Shown here: positions 14,932 to 23,946 of the stretch, piece by piece
Numbering within the stretch: the first letter of the stretch is position 1
Layout: every line of letters starts with the position of its first letter
Source of the DNA: Acidobacteriota bacterium
Lineage (GTDB): Bacteria; Acidobacteriota; UBA6911; RPQK01; JAJDTT01
NCBI GenBank assembly: GCA_965217775.1
Contig: CBDCJH010000002.1
Location: 5,984,001-6,048,000, forward strand
Direction of reading: 5' to 3'
DNA length: 64,000 nt
Notes under the pieces: model-generated
What the model was told of the DNA's origin: nothing
The model's database searches: none
The model's input: only the letters and a program-made list of their open reading frames with translations
Made by a program: the position numbers and the translations under genes

Positions 14932-16341
14932 GTGGCGACTCCGTCTGTGCGAGATCAAGGGGAATCCGGACCGGGCCTGCGCCGGGCCCTGGGGCCGGGC
15001 ATGGCTCTGGCCATCGTGGTGGGAAACGTCATCGGTTCGGGAATCTTCCTGAAGCCGGGGAGCATTGCCGCCGAAGCCGGGGACTTCCGCCTGATCCTGT
15101 CGGCCTGGCTGGTGGGCGGCGCCGTCTGTGTCCTGGGCGCACTCTGCTTCTCGGAGCTGGCCGCCATGCTGCCCCGCGCCGGGGGCCTCTACGCCTTTCT
15201 CAAGGAGGCCTACGGTAAACCCGCCGGCTTCCTCTTCAGTTGGAACGAGTTCCTCTTCAACCGGCCCGCCAGCATCGGAGCACTGTCGGTGGCTTTCGCT
15301 GGCGCTCTCGGCCTCTCGATGGGCCGGACCCTGACTCAACTGGAGACCATCGTCCTTGCCCTGGGCCTCATCCTGCTTCTGACCTGGGTCAACATCCGGG
15401 GCGTTCTCTGGGGGGGATGGGTGCAGGGCGGCACGACTTTGGTCAAGGCCTCCTTCCTGGGACTGGTGGCGCTGCTGCCGTTTCTCATGACCCCCATTAC
15501 CGAGACCGGGATCGACTGGGCCAATTACAGCTCCCGCGTGGAGCCCTCTGGAGAAATGGCTTCCGGCACCCGCTTCGGCCTGGTGCTGCTCTCGGTCATG
15601 TGGGCCTACAACGGCTGGCACGGAATCACGCCGGTGGCCGAGGAGGTGCGGAACCCGGAACGCAATCTCCCCAGGGCCATGTTCGGCGGCGTCGGTGTGC
15701 TGATCGTGCTCTATGTCTCCGCCAATATCGCCTATCACGGAGTACTCTCGATGGAAGAGATGGCTGCCGCGGGTCCCCACGCCGCCGAGACCATGGTGGC
15801 TGCCCTGCTGGGGCCGTTCGGCGCCGCGGCCATGGCGGCCGTCGTCATGTGCAGCACCTTCGGCGGGATCAACAGCAACCTTCTTCTCTCCACGCGGATC
15901 CCGTTCGCCCTGGGCCGGGACCGCCTCCTGGCACCCGTATTGGGAAAGGTCCACGCCGCCTACCGCACTCCCTTCGTCGCCATCATCGTGCAGGCCGTCA
16001 TGGCGGCTCTCCTGGTGGTCGTCTCCGGGCTGCTCATCGAATTTCTGGGCTGGTCGGGAGAAAAGACCATCTTCCAGATCCTCACCGACTTCATCATCTT
16101 CGCCAACAGCATCTTCTACGTCCTGGCCGCGGCCGCTCTGTTCATCCTCCGCCGCAAACGGCCCGGCTGGAAACGGCCCTATCGGACCTGGGGATACCCC
16201 GTGGTGCCGGTGCTCTATCTCGGCTTCTACTTCTGGTTCCTGACGCAGGTGTATCTGGGAAAGCCGTTCGAGGCCAGTGCGGGAGTCGTCCTCATCAGCA
16301 CCGGCATTCCGGTCTACTGGATCCTGCGCCGGGGCCACTGA
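14932..16341 (+). CDS. APC-family amino acid permease
   Basis: IGSGIF, ELAAMLPRAGG, AYNGW, EEVRNPERNLP and RPYRTWGYP; many hydrophobic segments. Start uncertain (GTG 14932 or ATG 15001). Confidence 0.92.
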   Translation: MATPSVRDQGESGPGLRRALGPGMALAIVVGNVIGSGIFLKPGSIAAEAGDFRLILSAWLVGGAVCVLGALCFSELAAMLPRAGGLYAFLKEAYGKPAGFLFSWNEFLFNRPASIGALSVAFAGALGLSMGRTLTQLETIVLALGLILLLTWVNIRGVLWGGWVQGGTTLVKASFLGLVALLPFLMTPITETGIDWANYSSRVEPSGEMASGTRFGLVLLSVMWAYNGWHGITPVAEEVRNPERNLPRAMFGGVGVLIVLYVSANIAYHGVLSMEEMAAAGPHAAETMVAALLGPFGAAAMAAVVMCSTFGGINSNLLLSTRIPFALGRDRLLAPVLGKVHAAYRTPFVAIIVQAVMAALLVVVSGLLIEFLGWSGEKTIFQILTDFIIFANSIFYVLAAAALFILRRKRPGWKRPYRTWGYPVVPVLYLGFYFWFLTQVYLGKPFEASAGVVLISTGIPVYWILRRGH

Positions 16342-16405
16342 AGCGGGAAAGGCGTGCAAGGAGCGGGGACCGGAGTCACCTCAATACAACTAACGATTTT
16401 CTTTT

Positions 16406-19400
16406 TTATGCCACCCTCGAAGATGCTATTAATCGGGCGCGAGCATGAAACCAGGAGTCTATCGGTAATATTCTCTCTATCTCATCAAGATGATCGAGGA
16501 ACATCCGCAAGCATTTTTTGGGGTGAGGAGGTAAATGGGTCGCGATAATGGCCAATCTCTCCTCAAGCCATTTGAACCACACATCATGCGTTTCATGCGC
16601 GGCAGCGGCTTGAAACATAATCTGGAGAATAATTTGGATAGCTTTTTCTTCGGGAATTCTCGGGACGATCCTGATAACTGCATCCGAGATCCCATCTGCC
16701 AACATAGTATCGCGGTTCGCGGCTGCGACGATGCTGGCCAAACCTAAAAGCTTCCACTTCTCATGCGGCTCGGAATCGGAGTTATTTTCCGCTATTTTTT
16801 TTACAGCTTGCAGTGCGTATTCTATTTCCGGTTCGCCCAAAGCAAAAGACTGAGAAGCTATACTGAGCAGCTGCAAAAGGAATAGTTCACTTCTAGCCGT
16901 CGATTTTTCTCCAAGTTTAACGATGATCTCCTGTGGAACCGGTTTCTTTGGTCGCCTATGACCTTCAAGGGGGCCGGGGAAGAATCCAAAGGCAAACGTT
17001 TGTCCATGATCCTCGTCCCGAACAAGTGCATGAGCTATATCTTCCGACCTCGGTACTTGGTGCCCCACGCGTTCGTGACGGGATTTGAGGATATAGAGGC
17101 GGCCGAGTATTTCATTTCGCAAAGCCTGTGTTGATGATATGCGGTGTGCAAAGAGCATCGGCTCCTTCCTAGCACTTACTAGGTTCGAATAGAAACCGGC
17201 CACTGCCATGTTGTCGCCAGCCCATTCCTGAAGCGCGTCGGCATCGATTGAAGGATTTAAACTTGTTAGGGCTCGGGCAATCAGCCCAGCCTGCATCCAT
17301 GCGCACATCCGTTTCCAATAGCCGGGGTAATTCGATCCGTTTTCCAGAAGATTGATCCGGTTGAGCACAAAGTCCGCGAGGATCGGAAGAAGCCTATATA
17401 AGTTAGGACCATCCTGTTGTCCAAGTTGTTTGTCCAAAAGCGTGGCAACAGCCTCGGCAGAGAAGTCTCGAAACCGATGGTCTCCTTGTCGATACAGCGC
17501 GATGTCGAGGGCACCCAACAACGAGAACGGGTTGCTTTCGACGTCACATGAAGACACTACATCCCAAACGAGATCATCGTTAATGGTGGTACACCATAGT
17601 CCCGGTGTCAGGTCGTCCCGTAATGCGCCTAGGCAACAGATATCGAGCCCTACTCGCACATCTCGGTTCAAAAGTGCCTTCCGGTAGGGAACGAGAACTT
17701 CGTGAAAATATGATTCAGGTTCCCGCAAACCAGGTGCCGGGCCAGCATATTGCTCAAAATAAGAAAACGATTGTGGAATGATGTCTGCAACATTGAAGCC
17801 TCCCCCACGATTGATTTTTTGGATAAAGGTGGCTTGAAGGGCCGCGGCCCCATTAGCAGACTCATTGAATATAGTGGAAAGCTCTTGGTCGTTTGCCTCA
17901 CGGGCTTCCATGTTTGTGAGCAACCCTTGGAGGTCCGGGGCAGTTGGTCCGAATTGTTCAATCAGACTCCGAAGCGCGGCAATCCGCGCTTTTCGATTGG
18001 GTGAAAGTAGCGCCAATTGGGGAAACTTTGCCCGGTGGGGAACGGACTCGGCGTCGGACCACTTAACGACTATGTTCTGGTCTCTCATATCTAGGCCGAC
18101 TAATAATTCCCTCCCAGCAACGCCTTGAACAGATCTCTCTTTACTAGTAGCCAAGACTTCCCTCGCTGCCGCAAACAGCTCGCTGTTTACCAATTGGATA
18201 TTTGATCCTATTTTAAAGATCTGTCTTGTCTCAAAACCACTTCGCTTCGCGAACTCCGCATCTTGGGCAATAACTACTCTGCGAGCGGCCTCTGGCAACC
18301 GGTCCAGAAAAAGATTTCCGTATCTTTCTTGATCGTTTTCAAGGCCTGAAATCGACTCGCGGGCGGAGGTAAGCGCCTTCTCGATGATGCTCTTATTGGC
18401 GGGTCGCAAGGCCTCAAGGACGGATTGGTCGATCCAGTGAGTGTAATGTACTCGGCGATCTTGCGGGAGGATAGCCGTTGGCAAAAGTAGATTCCCTAAA
18501 CGCAGAGGTATCAGTTCTCGGAGCCAAGCCGTATAGTCACCATGTTCGAAATGTTCATGACCCAAAATCGCTTTCATCATCAGATGGCACCAAACCCAGT
18601 CGGATAGCGCCATTGTTCGTTCGATAGTAAGGGATGAATCTTGCCACAAGTGCTCGATGGCGGTGCCAATAGCGCAGTGGATGTTAGCGGACAATGCCAT
18701 CATTTCTTTTGTGGCAGCCAAGCTGAGGGTGTCAATGTGAGTCACGGCCTGACGGAGAATTCTCAGTTCCGCGCTCTCTTTCAATTTGCCGTCGTCCACC
18801 GTCGCCGACTCCAACCAATGCATCAACTCGTCGGATTCAATCGGGACGAAGACAAAACCGCTCTGTCGGAGCTTGTGCCGCGCGATCCAGTGGTCGGCAA
18901 TACTAATGCATCCGCGAGAAACGAGGTAACGCAATATATCCAATACGCATACAATGGGGATTGATTGTCCAGTACGGTTGGTAATGACCGGGTGACTGTT
19001 GATGTAGCGATCATCGATAGAGAGCGCATCACAGGCAGCTTTGCCTGCCAGCACAGATGCCGTTGCTTGGAATCGAATCTCATGCTTCTGAACCCGCTTG
19101 TCCCGCTCGACGGCGCGTGGTAGGAAAGACGCCGTTCCGGAGCTCAGCGCATTTCGCAAGATATCGCTAATCCGTTCTATCTTTTTCACGGATTCACGGC
19201 CCACATCACCTGCGTCGATGAGCGTGTGTATTTCGTCTAGAATGTCTGGATGGATCCGCATGTCCAGCCCACTGGCAGCTAGTGGCTCCAATAAGCTGGC
19301 GCTTTGCAGGTAGGATAGAGCAAGTCCCTCTACGTAAATGGGACCGTTGAGGACCGAAGCTGGGAGATTCGCGTGCTGTGATTGACCCTTGCCGCGCAAG

Positions 19401-22400
19401 AATGAGCTTGCCTGTTGATAAATGTTTGCGTCGATTTGTCCTTCGTCGAGGCACAGTTTGCAGAGATCCATTGTTGAGAGGATCAAGTCGTCATGCTCGC
19501 TCATGTCCGCATGTTGTTCCATCAGCGATCCGACCTTACGGATCGGTAGAACACAAATGACCTTGCCGTTGTCATGTCGGGCCATATGAAAGAGCCCGGC
19601 TAGTTCGAGTCCTACTTCGTCGATGCTAGTCCTGGGAGGCGCACCCAAGTTAATGGCGGCTCGAAGCTGTTCCCGGCTTTGGAGTTCCCGCACATTCGTG
19701 GCTGCGGCTGTACGAAAAGGCTGGTGAAAACGAACTTCATCCCTTTCGCGAAATAGAAACTCCATGATGTTTGGAGCCAGCTCGGTGTGGTGAAATGCCG
19801 CAACGGTGGTTTCCAGTAGATCGAGGCGGTCAAGAATCAATATTGAGGTCAAGTCCAAACCAATCGTCCAGTCGTCCTGCAATTCAATCGGATTCTGTCC
19901 ACCGGCAATGACCGGGAGTATCACTCGGCAGCGACCGTCTAGTTCGATGGCATGCTGATTGGAGAAATGGAGCAGAAGGCGCACAAGCGACTCTTGGCAC
20001 CAAGTTGTGGTAAAGTAAACCCTCGGATTACCTCTCAGTTTCAAGAGGAGCCCGCCAGCCCAATTTGCCCATTCCTCGCCGCGTTTGCGGGCGAGCAACG
20101 CACCCATCACAATGTTTGTTGCAGTCTGGACTTTGAGATCATTGAGTCGTTTGTTAGCCCAGATCGCATTGATGAAATCTGCTGCGAGTCTGATATGTGA
20201 GACAGGCTCTGCGGTCTTGGTGCCGATATAGGCGCAAAGAGCCTGTAGGTGCACAAGCTCGTTGCTCGTATCCCGCTCGAATGCTGAGAGAAGCACCGGT
20301 GTACTAATCGAGACATAATCATCACGATAAGCGGCAAAATGCACAAGCGCTTCGCTATAGTCGCTCAGAGTCATGGTCTCTGCTTGCTGCGCGCTCAACA
20401 GCACCGCCTGGAGCCAAACTCCCTTGGTACCGAATGCCAAGCCAGCCCACTGGCGCATCGTCAGGTCTTCGCAGAGCAGCAATCGGTCTTGGCCTGCGAT
20501 TACTGCCGGGGCGATTGCATCACCGGACGGAAAGCCAAGTAGCGTCTCGCCTACTTCAGATAAATCGTCAGGAATTACGACGGGCTCGACTGTACAGGCT
20601 TCCTGGATGGCCGCGAGTCGTGACTCGATCAAGTCCAGGTGGCCAGCGCGTTCCTCCGGAGTCATGATCTGGCGGATATATTGGCCGTCCTGATAGGTGA
20701 GGCTCATCGTTTCCTCATTAGCTTCGCCAACAGGATCATCGAGCATTTGTTTGAGGCGGCCAAATTCGTTGGCCGGAATGACGAGAAGACCCAGTTGCTC
20801 CTTGAGAACAGGAAAAACTCCGAGTTCTGCGGCACGCCAAGCAGTAAACCCGTCTAGAACTGCTCCGGAACAACCATTGTCTTCGATTAGAGCAAGGGCG
20901 TCGGCGCGCTCATCCTCCGTTCCATAACAGACGCGCATGCCTTCTCCAATCGAGATGAGATACTGGACGAAAGCGATGCTGCCGCCCCGCCTATCTCCAA
21001 CAATGAAGGCGATAGGAATTTTGTCGATGAGATAAAGATTGGCTTGGGAGCGAGCCGCCTCGCTAAGGCGGCGCACCTGCTCCAGGACCGGCTCTATTTC
21101 GCCCTCGGCAATAGGCACGCTAGCAAAACCTCTGGCGTCCGGAAATCGCCGACCGAAATTCCTGCTAAGGTGATGGAAAGCTTGCAACCAACGGGGCTTT
21201 ACGACCGATACGGTCCAGGTTTCGGTCACGTCTAGGGCATCAACGTGTTCGAACGTATCGCCGATTGTTAGCCCAACGGCCTTAGCAACGAAAGTGTTGG
21301 AAGGATCTACCCTTTCACCCCAAGGCCGGTCGGCCGCATCGCCCACAAGCACCTCAAAATCCTCGCCTCGGCTTGATGTCAGACGAACCCAGACACCGGG
21401 TGTAACAATGCCATCGAAATTGTCCGGTCGATTCGGTGTAGGTTTGATGACGAGCCCCAAGAACTTTCTCACCACCTCAGCGCGGTCTAACCCGTCAATT
21501 AGGGCTTGGTACCCGAGTTCGAGCGCGCGTGCGCTCTCACCACAATCGAGAAGGACATGACAAAATTCGATGCGCGCAAGGGGCGAGCCCCGTAACGTGT
21601 CGACGCCGTCACGTTGCAGGAGCGATACAATGGAATCTCTATCTCCGACTCCGGAATAAGCGGCAATGAGGCCCATCAAATTTTCGATACAGGGCTGTTT
21701 CTCAAAGGCAGTGGCAAAGGGATCGACCGCCTCCTCTGGGACTCCGCGTTTGAGATGGAGAACGCCTTCAAAGCTTTGAAAAACAGGCAGACTTCGGATC
21801 TCAGGGGATAGGCTTTCGAAGAAACGCACCGCGCGGTCTCGTATCGGAAAGTCGTGAGCAAGCGCTTGGGCTAGCAAACGCAATGCAGCACTATCGTTGT
21901 CAAGTGGCATATGGCCAGTCAATATATCTGCTGCGATGCTGGGTTTACCGCTCTCCATGGCTTCTTGTGCGATCGAGAAGCGAGAAACAAACTCATCGTC
22001 TCCGCGTTCGAAGGCTGATTGTGCAGTTGTGAAATATGTCCTTGCGAGATCCGTAAATCCATGCTTGCGGGCACCTTGGGCGAGTAATATCAAGGCGCGT
22101 GTATCTTTTTTAAATGTGTCTTGCTCTGCTTCGAAGATTGAACAGCGCTGTTCCACAGGAGATTGTTCTACGTTTGCAAGCACCCGCGCCGCGCGGGCGA
22201 GACCCCGCACCTCTTCGGGAAAGGTCTCTTCATAGTTGTCGATGAGGTCGGAGACAGTGCCCCAGTCTTTAGTGGCCATGGCCACGTTGTAACGAATCAT
22301 CACGGTGTTGGGGCTGGGCTCAAGTTCAGATACCAGAGATAGTGCCCGGTCGATATCGCCCTGTTCGAGTAGTGCGGTTGCGAGGCATTCCTTTACTGTG

Positions 22401-23821
22401 ACGTTGCCGGGAAAGCGGTCGAGCGCTTCGTTCCCAATCGCAATGGCTTTCTCACGTTCCTGCAGCAGCCGGTAGGCGACCATAAGGTTTAGCGGAACAG
22501 ACAGCAGCTTGTCGCCGGCATGATGAGCGTGATCGCGGATCCGCGGCCAGCAGGTCTCATATATGCTGGTTGCTGTTTCGACATCGGTGCGCATATCTTT
22601 GCTGAGAGCCCGGTCGTCGAGAACACCGGCTCTGTCGAGGACCCGTTCGAGGAGTGCGCAGGCATAAACTTCATTAATCGCATCGTTATCTGGGTGCGCG
22701 TCATAAGCGGCGATGGCGGCATCCCACCAAGAGCCGTGGCCGGCCCGAGCCATGAGCCATCGCACGTGAGCTTCTGCGACCTCGGGCTCACCACGTACCG
22801 TTTCTGGCACATGAGCAAGCGGATCGGTTACGGTCTCGTCGGCCACCATGCCTTGGATGTAATATGCGGCAAGCTTGGCGTTGTCGGGGAATTCTGATAG
22901 TTGAGTTTCGGCGAATGTCTTAAGGGCGGTCCAGTCGGCCTGAAGAAACAGACCTAGCGCTTTGTGAGCGATCGCTTTAGAGTTGCTAGGGTCATAGTCG
23001 TAGGCGGCAATGAGGCCTTGCGCGGCGGTTTCTTCTTCTCCGAGGTTAAATTGGCAGGCGGCAATATTAGCCGCAACTCTGAATCGGATATGGTCGGTGG
23101 CGTCGTCATCAAGGTCCGCTTGGAGTTTTTGAAATAACTCTAGGGCTATTGCGGGGTTAGCAGAAATGAGAACAGCATAATCATTGACTTGGCGTTCGAG
23201 CGTGGTATGGGCTTTTGTGTCACTGATGGCTGGGCTGATTGCCGGCTTGATCTTCTCGGCTTGCAGCATCGATTTGAGTTGTGGACCAACTGAATTGGCA
23301 ACCTCACGAGCCAAGTCCTCCATCTTGTTCTCAAACCAGTTTGCGTATGGTGTGTGGGATGGGTCGAACGCTTCAAGCGCCCGGGGATGGCGGCGGATCT
23401 CAAATTCTAGGCTACCCCAACCGAGAACCCGGACTTTGAGATCCTTCTCTCGGTCCTTGCTGGCAGAGATGGACAGTTCAAGGGCCAATGTGTCGAGGTT
23501 GGCGTCATCGGGTGCGGTAGTAACGATGATGTATTCCGAGAGAAGCGGCCTGAATGCCAGTGCCTTTTCGACTTCACTTCTGACTTCAACTTCGGTAAGG
23601 TTTTTGCCGTAGCCCTTCAGCTTGCATTGCACACCAACGATCCGATTTGGGGTATTCTCACGGATACCGATGAGATCGACACCATATTGATTCTGGCCTC
23701 GACGGCCGTATAATTTGACCGTGTCGTCCTTGAGAATATAGCTCCATAGAATCCTGTTGCAGCGCTCGAATGTTTGTTCGTCACTGGGTTTGGGAATCTG
23801 CGTGGCCGTGAATTCAGACAT
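16406..23821 (-). CDS. 2471-aa candidate defence protein: restriction-endonuclease-like + TPR + GreA/B-C-like + multiple PIN-like domains
   Basis: Uninterrupted ORF of visibly lower GC than its flanks. N-terminal GRRGQNQYGVD...GVQCK; helical repeats; GreA-C-like IVTPGVWVRL...VAKAVGLTIGDTF; PIN-like AVLDG...LLCED, IGLDLTS and IYVEG...SIDDR. Confidence 0.75.
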   Translation of the reverse strand: MSEFTATQIPKPSDEQTFERCNRILWSYILKDDTVKLYGRRGQNQYGVDLIGIRENTPNRIVGVQCKLKGYGKNLTEVEVRSEVEKALAFRPLLSEYIIVTTAPDDANLDTLALELSISASKDREKDLKVRVLGWGSLEFEIRRHPRALEAFDPSHTPYANWFENKMEDLAREVANSVGPQLKSMLQAEKIKPAISPAISDTKAHTTLERQVNDYAVLISANPAIALELFQKLQADLDDDATDHIRFRVAANIAACQFNLGEEETAAQGLIAAYDYDPSNSKAIAHKALGLFLQADWTALKTFAETQLSEFPDNAKLAAYYIQGMVADETVTDPLAHVPETVRGEPEVAEAHVRWLMARAGHGSWWDAAIAAYDAHPDNDAINEVYACALLERVLDRAGVLDDRALSKDMRTDVETATSIYETCWPRIRDHAHHAGDKLLSVPLNLMVAYRLLQEREKAIAIGNEALDRFPGNVTVKECLATALLEQGDIDRALSLVSELEPSPNTVMIRYNVAMATKDWGTVSDLIDNYEETFPEEVRGLARAARVLANVEQSPVEQRCSIFEAEQDTFKKDTRALILLAQGARKHGFTDLARTYFTTAQSAFERGDDEFVSRFSIAQEAMESGKPSIAADILTGHMPLDNDSAALRLLAQALAHDFPIRDRAVRFFESLSPEIRSLPVFQSFEGVLHLKRGVPEEAVDPFATAFEKQPCIENLMGLIAAYSGVGDRDSIVSLLQRDGVDTLRGSPLARIEFCHVLLDCGESARALELGYQALIDGLDRAEVVRKFLGLVIKPTPNRPDNFDGIVTPGVWVRLTSSRGEDFEVLVGDAADRPWGERVDPSNTFVAKAVGLTIGDTFEHVDALDVTETWTVSVVKPRWLQAFHHLSRNFGRRFPDARGFASVPIAEGEIEPVLEQVRRLSEAARSQANLYLIDKIPIAFIVGDRRGGSIAFVQYLISIGEGMRVCYGTEDERADALALIEDNGCSGAVLDGFTAWRAAELGVFPVLKEQLGLLVIPANEFGRLKQMLDDPVGEANEETMSLTYQDGQYIRQIMTPEERAGHLDLIESRLAAIQEACTVEPVVIPDDLSEVGETLLGFPSGDAIAPAVIAGQDRLLLCEDLTMRQWAGLAFGTKGVWLQAVLLSAQQAETMTLSDYSEALVHFAAYRDDYVSISTPVLLSAFERDTSNELVHLQALCAYIGTKTAEPVSHIRLAADFINAIWANKRLNDLKVQTATNIVMGALLARKRGEEWANWAGGLLLKLRGNPRVYFTTTWCQESLVRLLLHFSNQHAIELDGRCRVILPVIAGGQNPIELQDDWTIGLDLTSILILDRLDLLETTVAAFHHTELAPNIMEFLFRERDEVRFHQPFRTAAATNVRELQSREQLRAAINLGAPPRTSIDEVGLELAGLFHMARHDNGKVICVLPIRKVGSLMEQHADMSEHDDLILSTMDLCKLCLDEGQIDANIYQQASSFLRGKGQSQHANLPASVLNGPIYVEGLALSYLQSASLLEPLAASGLDMRIHPDILDEIHTLIDAGDVGRESVKKIERISDILRNALSSGTASFLPRAVERDKRVQKHEIRFQATASVLAGKAACDALSIDDRYINSHPVITNRTGQSIPIVCVLDILRYLVSRGCISIADHWIARHKLRQSGFVFVPIESDELMHWLESATVDDGKLKESAELRILRQAVTHIDTLSLAATKEMMALSANIHCAIGTAIEHLWQDSSLTIERTMALSDWVWCHLMMKAILGHEHFEHGDYTAWLRELIPLRLGNLLLPTAILPQDRRVHYTHWIDQSVLEALRPANKSIIEKALTSARESISGLENDQERYGNLFLDRLPEAARRVVIAQDAEFAKRSGFETRQIFKIGSNIQLVNSELFAAAREVLATSKERSVQGVAGRELLVGLDMRDQNIVVKWSDAESVPHRAKFPQLALLSPNRKARIAALRSLIEQFGPTAPDLQGLLTNMEAREANDQELSTIFNESANGAAALQATFIQKINRGGGFNVADIIPQSFSYFEQYAGPAPGLREPESYFHEVLVPYRKALLNRDVRVGLDICCLGALRDDLTPGLWCTTINDDLVWDVVSSCDVESNPFSLLGALDIALYRQGDHRFRDFSAEAVATLLDKQLGQQDGPNLYRLLPILADFVLNRINLLENGSNYPGYWKRMCAWMQAGLIARALTSLNPSIDADALQEWAGDNMAVAGFYSNLVSARKEPMLFAHRISSTQALRNEILGRLYILKSRHERVGHQVPRSEDIAHALVRDEDHGQTFAFGFFPGPLEGHRRPKKPVPQEIIVKLGEKSTARSELFLLQLLSIASQSFALGEPEIEYALQAVKKIAENNSDSEPHEKWKLLGLASIVAAANRDTMLADGISDAVIRIVPRIPEEKAIQIILQIMFQAAAAHETHDVWFKWLEERLAIIATHLPPHPKKCLRMFLDHLDEIERILPIDSWFHARARLIASSRVA

Positions 23822-23946
23822 GGATTAGAACGAGCGCAAGCCTGACGAGGCAGTGTTTCAATTTCCTTTATAACGTAACGAAAATCAAGGAATACGCGCT
23901 GACTATCACATTGCCAACGACACTTCGTGTTGCTGCTGGTAGGGGG

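What the first reader, a model, noticed from the sequence alone, without database searches (positions are those of the whole stretch)
16406..23821. Giant single-gene candidate defence system: nuclease-TPR-GreA/B-C-PIN with further PIN modules
A 7.4-kb lower-GC gene sits alone between catabolic genes with no integrase nearby. Readable modules: PD-(D/E)xK-type N-terminus (GVD...QCK), about 600 aa of TPR-like solenoid, a GreA/B C-terminal-like domain (about 21190-21410), a PIN-like domain (about 20460-20870), two more PIN-like segments (about 19000-19870) and a long helical tail. I recall TPR-GreAB-C-PIN proteins being predicted computationally as conflict systems; this needs verification. GreA/B-C normally docks on RNA polymerase. 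Inference: the protein senses hijacked or stalled RNAP and responds with DNase and RNase activity. No NTPase motif was seen, unlike STAND/Avs systems.
Basis: partly seen in the sequence, partly recalled or inferred. Interest (0 to 1): 0.78.

Follow-up and report, generated by a model that had tools for sequence, protein, structure and literature searches.

The report
Two RNA-polymerase-watching defence proteins fused
This 2,471-residue gene joins a complete member of a published family of one-gene bacterial anti-virus proteins to most of a second, related giant protein, giving one chain with four nuclease-type domains, and this fused form is rare.

Summary
The ORF 16406-23821 (-), 2471 aa, is real. 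It has low GC and fills a 7.6-kb insert at a variable chromosomal site.

- a Mrr-type PD-(D/E)xK nuclease (hhalign 96.2%, E 2e-9);
- TPR repeats;
- a GreA/B-C fold (Foldseek top hits GreA, Gfh1 and GreB);
- a PF20698 PIN domain (E 7e-18);
- two further PIN-like domains.

Residues 1-1277 are a complete REase-TPR-GreA/B-C-PIN ("TGP") protein, a family published by Kaur et al. in 2021. One member of that family, Agp, has been shown to defend against phage.

Residues 1276-2471 are 64% identical to the C-terminal part of about 2060-aa "HTH-double-PIN" proteins (Pfam PF24407). In homologues, the "helical tail" of this part carries a domain that Pfam calls Permuted_GreAB-C (19 of 40 homologues). The window's own copy does not reach that model.

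The fused form was found only here, in one same-genus genome and in two metagenomic clusters. In the congener the gene follows a type I R-M operon, and the window keeps a 45-nt relic of its hsdR.

The function, RNA-polymerase-directed abortive defence, is inferred and not shown. The scan has met TGP proteins before on other DNA. My verdict is a new variant of a known kind, of moderate interest.

The parts
16406..23821 (-). Whole gene, 2471 aa plus stop
   Evidence: ORF list and translation. An ungapped 2471-aa orthologue, 85% identical, is present in G005.
16333..23945 (.). Low-GC insert at a variable site between the amino-acid permease and PhyH genes
   Evidence: BLAST against same-genus genomes. 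In G004 the two flanking genes are about 40 bp apart. Other genomes hold inserts of other sizes. GC profile.
23899..23943 (-). About 45-nt relic of the 3' end of a type I restriction hsdR gene, inside the 122-nt upstream spacer
   Evidence: It aligns to the end of the G005 hsdR ORF, including the stop position. BLAST homology to G005 runs to window 23942 = L012 9920, and hsdR ends at L012 9956.
23312..23821 (-). aa 1-170: Mrr-type PD-(D/E)xK nuclease head (E19, D49, Q65-x-K67)
   Evidence: D49, Q65 and K67 in 37 of 37 relatives and E19 in 35 of 37. hhalign against Mrr_cat domains of 11 genomes: prob 96.2, E 2.2e-9. Mrr_cat hits in 4 of 37 relatives and Mrr_cat_2 in 2 of 37. Weak PADLOC LmuA hit at aa 16-118, E 1.3e-3.
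21452..23224 (-). aa ~200-790: TPR-type alpha-solenoid
   Evidence: Own sequence has weak TPR_19 and ARM_TT21 hits at aa 438-505. Relatives: TPR_14 in 28 of 37 and TPR_19 in 27 of 37. The profile hits consensus TPR structures in PDB, E down to 4e-44.
21176..21406 (-). aa ~806-882: GreA/B C-terminal-like domain
   Evidence: AF2 model of aa 790-1290, pLDDT 93.7. Foldseek top hits are GreA/GreB 2pn0, Gfh1-RNAP 3aoi, Rnk 3bmb and GreB 2p4v. PF01272 hits 7 of 37 relatives, best E 1e-8. The window's own sequence has no PF01272 hit at E <= 1.
20867..21175 (-). aa ~883-985: helical linker, homologous to the 'HTH upstream of double PIN' region of the second family
   Evidence: Profile-profile alignment of A4 against A2. 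Helices in the model.
20444..20860 (-). aa 988-1126: PIN domain of the TGP type (D990, E1118, D1119)
   Evidence: PF20698, E 7.2e-18. D990 in 37 of 37 and D1119 in 36 of 37 relatives. Foldseek PIN hits 1v8o (prob 0.99, TMt 0.64), 1y82, 2mdt and 3ix7.
19997..20443 (-). aa 1127-1275: helical end of the TGP part, reaching the position where stand-alone TGP proteins end
   Evidence: Alignment with ~1300-aa relatives and with P0006.
19994..19996 (-). Fusion point, codon 1276
   Evidence: Homology to P0006 ends at aa 1277. Homology to P0012 begins at aa 1276, which is P0012 aa 877, inside its PF24407 HTH at 845-910. Contigs 19797-20085 of runs X2 and X4 bridge it with no differences.
19475..19882 (-). 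aa ~1314-1449: first PIN-like domain of the second part (D1323, E1359, E1402)
   Evidence: It aligns to the TGP PIN in the A4-versus-A2 comparison (prob 96.6, E 5.5e-10 over 385 columns). Alone, E is 4e-5 to 6e-5. Residues are conserved in 59-63 of 64 relatives. The model shows alternating strands and helices.
18779..19354 (-). aa ~1490-1681: second PIN-like domain (E1498, E1530, D1603, D1604, D1628)
   Evidence: PF20698 hits this region in homologues: P0015 at 27.1 bits against a cut-off of 27.8, P0012 at E 1.5e-4, and 8 of 40 members of A5. The acidic residues are conserved. Direct hhalign to the TGP PIN is weak, E ~0.01.
18239..18772 (-). aa ~1684-1861: helical region
   Evidence: AF2 model.
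18023..18220 (-). aa ~1868-1933: small beta-rich domain, the place where homologues match Pfam 'Permuted_GreAB-C'
   Evidence: Model strand order is strand-strand-helix-strand-strand-strand-strand. PF24388 hits P0318 aa 6-46, which corresponds to window aa ~1874-1914 (27.1 bits, cut-off 27), and 19 of 40 members of A5. The window's own copy has no hit at E <= 0.1. There is no hhalign signal to the canonical GreA/B-C domain, single or in tandem.
16409..18022 (-). aa 1934-2471: conserved alpha-solenoid tail
   Evidence: All helices in the model. Foldseek gives only generic solenoids (CRM1, importins, TM 0.15-0.2). Many polar residues are conserved. The same module occurs as ~633-aa proteins and behind an SF1 helicase.

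Best explanation
The gene encodes a single-chain, NTPase-free anti-phage (abortive-infection type) protein. It arose by an in-frame fusion of two related RNA-polymerase-directed defence modules.

Part A, aa 1-1275, is a complete member of the published REase-TPR-GreA/B-C-PIN ('TGP') family. By that family's model, which is inference, the TPR array senses an infection cue. The GreA/B-C domain then docks on the beta' rim helices at the secondary channel of RNA polymerase, and the PIN domain cuts the transcript. The Mrr-type DNase head is released as a last resort.

Part B, aa 1276-2471, is the C-terminal 1196 aa of a 'double-PIN' giant. It comprises half of that family's HTH, two PIN-like domains, a helical spacer, a small beta domain that Pfam classes in homologues as a circularly permuted GreA/B-C, and a long alpha-solenoid. 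In this gene, a whole TGP protein stands in place of that family's own ~870-aa N-terminal/TPR region.

I read the fusion as functional. Part A supplies sensing and a first RNAP hold. Part B adds a second putative RNAP-binding unit and two more RNase-type domains.

What is shown: the domain identities, the fusion, its conservation, and the mobile, defence-linked setting. What is inferred: RNAP binding, nuclease activity, the trigger and the phenotype.
For: Architecture:
- PF20698 PIN, E 7e-18.
- GreA/Gfh1/GreB are the top structural matches of a pLDDT 93.7 model.
- Mrr_cat profile match 96.2%, E 2e-9, with E/D/QxK aligned.
- Catalytic-type residues are conserved in all four nuclease-type domains.

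Fusion:
- aa 1-1277 are 73% identical to P0006 aa 775-2049. aa 1276-2459 are 64% identical to P0012 aa 877-2060.
- Part A alone is a large ~1300-aa family, with 542 clusters at E <= 1e-30.
- Part B occurs in ~2060-aa proteins (26 of 42 species loci) and alone as ~1270-aa proteins.
- The two families share a TPR-end/HTH/PIN core (hhalign 96.6%, E 5.5e-10).

The fusion is kept:
- Intact fused forms are seen in G005 (85% identical) and in clusters P0002 (85%) and P0004 (72%).
- dN/dS against G005 is 0.39 overall and 0.23-0.72 in each of 12 segments, with no gaps.
- Short-read contigs of two runs bridge the junction.

Setting:
- The insert has low GC.
- The site is empty or filled differently in 4 same-genus genomes.
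- In G005 the gene follows hsdM-hsdS-(AlbA_2/HATPase_c_4 gene)-hsdR plus an IS630-type transposase. The window keeps an hsdR relic.
- Type I R-M lies next to relatives in G023 and G028.
- All 3 annotated plasmid loci examined hold defence, toxin-antitoxin or integrase genes, among them Shedu and an ATP-dependent endonuclease with a UvrD helicase.
- Relatives of part A are on 59 plasmids, 33 of them conjugative or mobilizable.

Literature:
- The TGP model is from PMC8195603 (passages).
- Agp defends against T5 and needs its GreA/B-C domain (10.1101/2024.11.07.622273, passages).
Against: - No phenotype, binding or cleavage was measured for this protein or for any REase-headed or double-PIN relative.
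- The window's own sequence does not reach Pfam GreA_GreB, PF24407 or PF24388. The Foldseek E-values for GreA are only 4e-3 to 0.13.
- The 'permuted GreAB-C' label rests on Pfam's model hitting homologues near its cut-off. I found no similarity to the canonical domain, even against a tandem copy.
- The second PIN of part B matches the TGP PIN only weakly (E ~0.01). In the window its first acidic residue is E where 54 of 64 relatives have D.
- In a systematic look, type I R-M parts lay within the fetched flanks of only 5 of 42 part-B loci. Other defence genes were not screened there.
- PADLOC holds no model for either part beyond a weak LmuA hit.
- In the window itself no other defence gene is adjacent.
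Confidence: 0.6

Rival explanations
1. The fusion is an evolutionary accident in which only one half works. For example, a recombination joined a TGP gene to the remains of a neighbouring double-PIN gene, and the other half is a passenger on its way to decay.
For: - The fusion cuts the second family's HTH in the middle, with homology starting at P0012 aa 877 of the 845-910 HTH.
- The fused form is rare. It is 1 of the 150 best part-A representatives and 1 of 42 part-B species loci.
- dS differs several-fold along the gene (0.05-0.08 in aa 886-1275 against 0.25-0.33 in part B), a sign of mosaic recombination.
- A related part-B gene in G026 is broken by stops.
Against: - Four clusters, 72-85% identical to the window or the window itself, keep the whole 2467-2479-aa frame open.
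- Every segment of both halves has dN/dS below 1, between 0.23 and 0.72.
- The conserved acidic residues of all nuclease-type domains are present in the window's copy.
Confidence: 0.15
2. It is a defence or conflict protein, but the GreA/B-C-like domains do not dock on host RNA polymerase. They would serve as FKBP-like protein-binding or oligomerisation modules, or recognise a phage protein. The TPR and solenoid would then work as a pattern-recognition receptor that switches on the nucleases.
For: - The GreA/B-C domain is very divergent, with no PF01272 hit for the window's copy and 10-20% identity to solved GreA/Gfh1 in Foldseek.
- Long TPR and solenoid arrays are typical ligand sensors.
- In Bab/Agp the read-out is amyloid signalling to a membrane effector, not shown transcript cleavage.
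Against: - The best structural matches are all RNAP secondary-channel factors: GreA, GreB, Gfh1 and Rnk.
- In Agp, mutations copied from GreA variants that weaken RNAP binding abolish defence.
- Two independent GreA/B-C-type modules in one chain are hard to explain unless they share a target.
Confidence: 0.15
3. It is not an immune protein. It would be a housekeeping or stress factor that clears stalled transcription complexes, or a selfish addiction-type toxin of a mobile island.
For: - GreA-family factors and PIN nucleases have housekeeping roles (established knowledge).
- The window's copy sits among metabolic genes, downstream of PhyH on the same strand.
Against: - The distribution is patchy. 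Only 2 of 9 same-genus genomes (G000-G008) hold the full form, and only 8 of 61 relatives have any match.
- The gene lies in a low-GC insert at a variable site.
- It is linked to R-M, transposase, toxin-antitoxin and known defence genes and is carried on plasmids.
- dN/dS is fairly high at 0.39.
Confidence: 0.07

Closest known systems
TPR-GreA/B-C-PIN ('TGP') conflict systems with a REase head (Kaur, Iyer, Burroughs and Aravind, eLife 2021, PMC8195603; Pfam PF20698)
   Same: aa 1-1275 have the same domains in the same order (REase, TPR, GreA/B-C, PIN). The gene stands alone and has no NTPase. Alignment with ~1300-aa family members runs end to end at up to 57% identity.
   Different: The protein is nearly twice as long. 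1196 further residues from another family follow the point where TGP proteins normally end. I found no such C-terminal extension in the passages of the paper that I read. Its supplementary architecture tables could not be seen and may list one.
Agp of the Bab/Agp system of E. coli ECOR25 (bioRxiv 10.1101/2024.11.07.622273)
   Same: It has the same TPR-GreA/B-C-PIN core. It is the only family member I found with a shown anti-phage phenotype (T5, abortive infection) that depends on the GreA/B-C domain (passages).
   Different: Agp is 1094 aa. It has an N-terminal amyloid motif instead of a nuclease and works with a separate membrane-targeting partner, Bab. The window's gene has a fused Mrr-type nuclease, no partner gene, and the extra part B. 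I did not compare it with Agp's sequence.
About 2060-aa 'HTH upstream of double PIN' giants (Pfam PF24407, with PF24388 Permuted_GreAB-C in the tail), for example P0012
   Same: aa 1276-2471 are 34-73% identical to the C-terminal ~1190 aa of these proteins. The shared region covers two PIN-like domains, the beta domain and the solenoid.
   Different: The window's protein lacks their conserved ~870-aa N-terminal/TPR region and the first half of the HTH. A complete TGP protein takes that place. I found no paper on this family. What I know of it comes from Pfam names and my own comparisons.
Mrr-type restriction endonuclease catalytic domain (Pfam PF04471)
   Same: The E...D...QxK core aligns over 91 columns at prob 96.2.
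   Different: It is used here as the N-terminal effector of a multidomain protein, not as a modification-dependent restriction enzyme with its own DNA-binding domain.

Membership tests
TGP (TPR-GreA/B-C-PIN) conflict systems | C-terminal PIN domain of the PF20698 type | tested here: met
   PF20698 at aa 988-1126, 65.6 bits against a cut-off of 27.8. D990 is invariant. PIN folds appear in Foldseek.
TGP (TPR-GreA/B-C-PIN) conflict systems | GreA/B C-terminal-type domain between the TPR array and the PIN | tested here: met
   At fold level, GreA/GreB, Gfh1, Rnk and GreB are the top PDB matches (prob 1.00, rmsd 2.1-3.4 over 76-81 columns for most). At family level, PF01272 hits 7 of 37 relatives. 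The window's own sequence gives no PF01272 hit at E <= 1.
TGP (TPR-GreA/B-C-PIN) conflict systems | TPR array upstream of the GreA/B-C domain | tested here: met
   (weak).
TGP (TPR-GreA/B-C-PIN) conflict systems | Variable N-terminal effector, REase being one of the listed kinds | tested here: met
   Mrr_cat profile match. REase is listed in PMC8195603.
TGP (TPR-GreA/B-C-PIN) conflict systems | Binding to RNA polymerase and protection against phage | not testable with these tools
   Needs pull-down or structure work and a phage challenge.
PF24407/PF24388 'double PIN' giants | HTH_upst_double_PIN domain (PF24407) | tested here: not met
   The window's protein gives no hit at E <= 1. Homology to P0012 begins at its aa 877, inside the HTH at 845-910, so only the second half is kept.
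PF24407/PF24388 'double PIN' giants | Two consecutive PIN-like domains | tested here: met
   The window is 64% identical to P0012 through both domains. The first PIN aligns to the TGP PIN. The second is hit by PF20698 in homologues. The acidic residues are kept. Direct profile support for the second PIN is weak.
PF24407/PF24388 'double PIN' giants | Permuted GreAB-C domain (PF24388) in the tail | tested here: inconclusive
   19 of 40 homologues hit the model at E <= 0.1, the best at 27.1 bits against a cut-off of 27. The window's copy does not hit. A beta-rich domain is present at the matching place. There is no signal against the canonical domain. The fold could not be searched on its own.
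PF24407/PF24388 'double PIN' giants | The family's own ~870-aa N-terminal/TPR region | tested here: not met
   It is replaced by a TGP protein. I therefore file the gene as a TGP member carrying part of this family, not as a member of it.
STAND / Avs-type NTPase sensors | P-loop NTPase domain | tested here: not met
   No Walker A pattern. No NTPase family hit in Pfam, NCBIfam or PADLOC.
Lamassu (LmuA) | Full LmuA match with an SMC-type partner | tested here: not met
   There is only a 16.8-bit hit to the nuclease part of the LmuA model, at aa 16-118. No adjacent partner gene is present.

The most novel reading that the evidence does not exclude
The fusion is a 'Rosetta stone'. It would show that the canonical and the permuted GreA/B-C modules act on the same target. 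On this reading the protein is a two-headed trap that holds RNA polymerase, or two polymerases on invading DNA, at two points. It would bring three RNase-type domains and a DNase onto one transcription complex. By extension, the ~633-aa 'permuted GreAB-C plus solenoid' unit, also found alone and behind an SF1 helicase, would be a general and so far undescribed RNA-polymerase-docking adaptor of bacterial immunity.
Probability: 0.2. Interest if true: 0.7.

Novelty: new variant of a known kind. Interest (0 to 1): 0.42.

Why it matters
TGP proteins are a widespread, mostly untested class of one-gene immune proteins thought to watch RNA polymerase rather than phage DNA. This gene physically joins a TGP protein to a second giant family that has Pfam models but no paper I could find. 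That argues the two families work on the same target and can work together.

The gene also offers a natural construct for experiments. The halves can be separated, and each of four nuclease-type sites and two putative polymerase-docking domains can be mutated. Such tests would show whether these systems really sense hijacked transcription.

If the tail's beta domain is a true permuted GreA/B-C, the ~633-aa module that carries it would be a new polymerase-binding adaptor.

Tried and rejected
- **Complex prediction.** I ran the aa 800-895 domain with the rim-helix fragment of the genome's own RpoC (L062:1366-2046). The result was no verdict, score 0.00 in two runs. This is no evidence either way.
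- **Sequencing runs.** There were 15 holders and no RNA holder listed. Expression is therefore untested.
- **Foldseek of the 1200-aa part-B model.** It gave only generic alpha-solenoids (CRM1, importins, TM 0.15-0.2).
- **ESM Atlas on the tail.** The best score was 0.80, which gives no lead.
- **PDB sequence searches with the nuclease head.** Neither the single sequence nor a 17-row profile gave a meaningful hit, with E >= 0.27.
- **hhalign of the tail's beta domain against the canonical GreA/B-C domain.** E was 0.03-0.17 against the single copy and the tandem copy, and 0.25-0.63 for controls.
- **hhalign of the second part-B PIN against the TGP PIN.** E was ~0.01, prob 3-4%.
- **First A3-versus-A2 profile comparison.** I discarded it because A3 contained a full-length fused protein. 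It was repeated cleanly.
- **Promoter and terminator scan.** No minus-strand promoter-like site was found upstream. Counts were at or below shuffle expectation.
- **Repeat search.** No direct repeats flank the insert.
- **Type I R-M as a general neighbour.** I rejected this idea because only 5 of 42 part-B loci have it.
- **tblastn of part A against the 42 part-B loci.** Only the G005 locus matched, so I found no two-gene TGP + double-PIN arrangement.
- **Phage records.** There was one marginal hit to the nuclease head only.
- **Papers that yielded nothing on this architecture.** PMC13092281, PMC10853773 and 10.64898/2026.10.19.760177, passages only.
- **Earlier-findings look-up by sequence.** It returned an unrelated phage-fibre note.
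Full report
**Observation**

The window holds one uninterrupted ORF at 16406-23821 on the minus strand (ATG start, 2471 aa). Its GC is 0.50-0.56, against 0.61-0.67 in the flanks.

The neighbouring ORFs are metabolic or transport genes: CN_hydrolase, amino-acid permease, PhyH, Ldh_2, an enolase-superfamily enzyme and an Nramp-like transporter. Two further ORFs gave no Pfam hit. The window has no tRNA. The protein has no Walker A motif and no long hydrophobic run. The genome holds a single PF20698 copy.

**Part A, aa 1-1275**

Pfam places PF20698, 'PIN domain associated with the TPR-GreAB-C-PIN system', at aa 988-1126 (E 7.2e-18).

A full HMMER scan with aa 1-1200 against 1.84 billion representatives gave these counts:
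- 3540 relatives at E <= 1e-3 and 542 at E <= 1e-30.
- Of the best 150, all but one are at most 1369 aa, and most are 1270-1340 aa.
- Most of them align from residue 1.

I scanned 37 of these relatives in Pfam:
- 37 carry PF20698.
- 28 carry TPR_14.
- 7 carry GreA_GreB C-terminal (best E 1e-8).
- 4 carry Mrr_cat and 2 carry Mrr_cat_2.

An AlphaFold2 model of aa 790-1290, built on 92 sequences, has mean pLDDT 93.7. Its best PDB matches are:
- GreA/GreB 2pn0 (E 3.9e-3, prob 1.00, 81 columns, rmsd 2.9).
- Gfh1 in RNA polymerase complexes (3aoi), Rnk (3bmb) and GreB (2p4v).
- PIN proteins 1v8o (prob 0.99, TMt 0.64), 1y82, 2mdt and 3ix7.

No match reached E <= 0.001, as expected for small domains inside a 501-residue query.

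For the nuclease head, sequence searches of PDB found nothing. I then compared a profile of the head with Mrr_cat domains taken from 11 related genomes. The result was prob 96.2%, E 2.2e-9 over 91 columns, with E19, D49 and Q65-x-K67 on the Mrr motif. Six control profiles gave E 0.1-0.57. D49, Q65 and K67 are invariant in 37 of 37 relatives, and D990 of the PIN is too.

**What is published**

Kaur et al. 2021 (PMC8195603; passages read) describe this constant TPR-GreA/B-C-PIN core.
- They list 13 alternative N-terminal effectors, REase among them.
- They note that the genes mostly stand alone.
- They propose that GreA/B-C docks on the beta' coiled coil, that the PIN cleaves the extruded transcript, and that the N-terminal effector is a fail-safe.

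A 2024 preprint (10.1101/2024.11.07.622273; passages) shows that the TGP protein Agp, with its partner Bab, protects E. coli from T5.
- Two GreA/B-C mutations abolish protection.
- A PIN mutation also does, but it lowers the protein level.

The inference itself remains untested for REase-headed members.

**Part B, aa 1276-2471**

The word-index search with the whole protein returned 101 proteins, the query's own entry included.
- Only P0002, P0003 and P0004 (85, 85 and 72% identical, 2467-2479 aa) cover the full length.
- About 90 proteins of about 2060 aa align only to the C-terminal 48% of the query. They carry Pfam PF24407, 'HTH_upstream_double_PIN'.

Pairwise comparisons fix the junction:
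- aa 1-1277 are 73% identical to aa 775-2049 of P0006, a TGP protein with an extra N-terminal TPR block.
- aa 1276-2459 are 64% identical to aa 877-2060 of P0012.
- This starts inside P0012's HTH (845-910), so the window keeps only half of that HTH.

A model of aa 1272-2471 (67 sequences, pLDDT 87.1, pTM 0.79) shows, in order:
- two alpha/beta domains, at aa ~1314-1449 and ~1490-1681;
- a helical stretch;
- a small beta-rich domain at aa 1868-1933;
- about 540 residues of helices.

Foldseek on the whole model found only generic solenoids.

I aligned double-PIN giants alone (53 sequences) and compared them with the TGP family. The match was 96.6%, E 5.5e-10 over 385 columns. The end of the TPR array, the linker/HTH and the first PIN align, and the canonical GreA/B-C domain is a gap in the giants. 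The two families are therefore distant relatives.

For the second PIN, the evidence is mixed:
- PF20698 hits it in homologues: P0015 at 27.1 bits against a cut-off of 27.8, P0012 at E 1.5e-4, and 8 of 40 members of alignment A5.
- Its direct profile match to the TGP PIN is weak, E ~0.01.

Conserved acidic residues fit PIN sites:
- D1323, E1359 and E1402 in the first PIN.
- D/E1498, E1530, D1603, D1604 and D1628 in the second.
- The window has E at 1498 where 54 of 64 relatives have D.

**The tail**

A search among shorter proteins found three further forms:
- Part B standing alone, at ~1244-1292 aa with PF24407.
- A family of ~633-aa proteins that match aa ~1840-2468.
- A protein in which aa 1935-2431 follow an SF1 helicase.

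One ~600-aa relative, P0318, hits Pfam PF24388 'Permuted_GreAB-C' at its aa 6-46. This corresponds to window aa ~1874-1914, the beta-rich domain.

Of 40 relatives scanned, 19 hit this model at E <= 0.1 (best 3.2e-6). The window's own tail does not. I could not confirm the label independently. Profile comparison with the canonical domain, single or as a tandem copy, gave E 0.03-0.17, against 0.25-0.63 for controls.

I found no paper on 'double PIN' or 'permuted GreA' proteins.

**Is the fusion real and kept?**

- The same-genus genome G005 has an ungapped 2471-aa orthologue at the same site.
- dN/dS between the two is 0.39 overall and 0.23-0.72 in each of 12 segments, the junction included.
- Contigs of two sequencing runs span the junction (19797-20085, no differences).
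- Across one genome per species of the genome collection, 42 loci encode part-B relatives. Of these, 26 hold ORFs of 1999-2136 aa, one (G005) holds 2471 aa, and the rest are cut or split.
- Part A matched none of the other 41 loci.

The fused form is thus rare but maintained.

**Setting**

The insert spans about 16333-23945. Same-genus genomes differ at this site:

| Genome | What lies between the permease and PhyH genes |
|---|---|
| G004 | ~40 bp |
| G001 | 550 bp |
| G006 | 1.2 kb |
| G002 | a different 3.6 kb |
| G003 | not examined |
| G005 | ~11.7 kb, then the giant gene |

The G005 stretch holds small ORFs, an IS630-type transposase and hsdM-hsdS-(AlbA_2/HATPase_c_4 gene)-hsdR, which sit directly upstream of the giant gene.

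Window 23899-23943 aligns to the last ~45 nt of that hsdR, including the stop position. The window's lineage therefore most likely lost the R-M operon by deletion.

Other loci give a mixed picture:
- Type I R-M also flanks the part-B giant in G023 and a stand-alone TGP in G028, the latter with an integrase.
- Among all 42 part-B loci, only 5 have type I R-M parts in the fetched flanks.
- Part-A relatives lie on 59 plasmids, of which 25 are conjugative and 8 mobilizable. They are annotated 'hypothetical' or 'TPR protein'.
- In all 3 plasmid loci I opened, the neighbours include defence, toxin-antitoxin or integrase genes. The three were picked by hand from the top hits.
- Loose contig ends at 16332 in two runs suggest that strains with a different content at this site coexist.

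**Verdict**

The gene is best described as a REase-headed TGP defence protein fused to the double-PIN/solenoid part of a related giant family. This gives one chain with a DNase-type domain, three PIN-type domains, one GreA/B-C domain and possibly a second, permuted one.

Defence through RNA polymerase surveillance is the most likely function (about 0.6). It rests on family membership, genomic context and one tested relative, not on any measurement here.

The scan has already met TGP proteins on other DNA (14 notes) and the double-PIN giants twice. What is new here is the fusion, and the link from the 'helical arm' to Pfam's permuted GreAB-C model.

Noticed in passing
L022-L049 (part-B loci), about 50-1500 nt downstream of the giant gene, opposite strand; e.g. 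L046:13656-14138 and L049:14003-15019: Two small ORF families (medians 153 and 203 aa) recur just downstream of the ~2060-aa double-PIN genes, in 12 and 14 of 42 loci. Neither has a Pfam hit. Neither is present in the window.
   Followed up: partly
window 19997-21163 (aa 886-1275) versus the rest of the gene: Synonymous divergence from the G005 orthologue is 0.05-0.08 here, but 0.12-0.22 in the upstream part and 0.25-0.33 in part B. This suggests a recent recombination or gene-conversion tract inside the gene.
   Followed up: no
window 16332: Contigs of runs X1 and X3 leave the window's sequence exactly at the insert boundary and continue with other letters. Strains with different content at this site seem to coexist in those samples.
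   Followed up: no
G026:C41:268926-272511 (L005, L010): A 74-77% identical part-B-type gene in a same-order genome is interrupted by one TAA and one TGA. It looks like a decaying copy.
   Followed up: no
P0341; P0307-P0339: The solenoid tail (window aa 1935-2431) also occurs behind an SF1 helicase (AAA_30, UvrD_C_2). With the beta domain, it forms a separate family of ~633-aa proteins.
   Followed up: partly
L076:8101-8991 and L077:7660-8991 (plasmid loci): In two plasmids a helix-turn-helix gene and a small hypothetical gene lie directly upstream of the stand-alone TGP gene, on the same strand. This may be a regulator pair. It is absent from the window.
   Followed up: no
L016:741-4321 (G002) and L019:729-1953 (G006): Other same-genus genomes hold unrelated inserts of 3.6 kb and 1.2 kb at the same site. 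The ORFs I scanned there gave no Pfam hit.
   Followed up: partly
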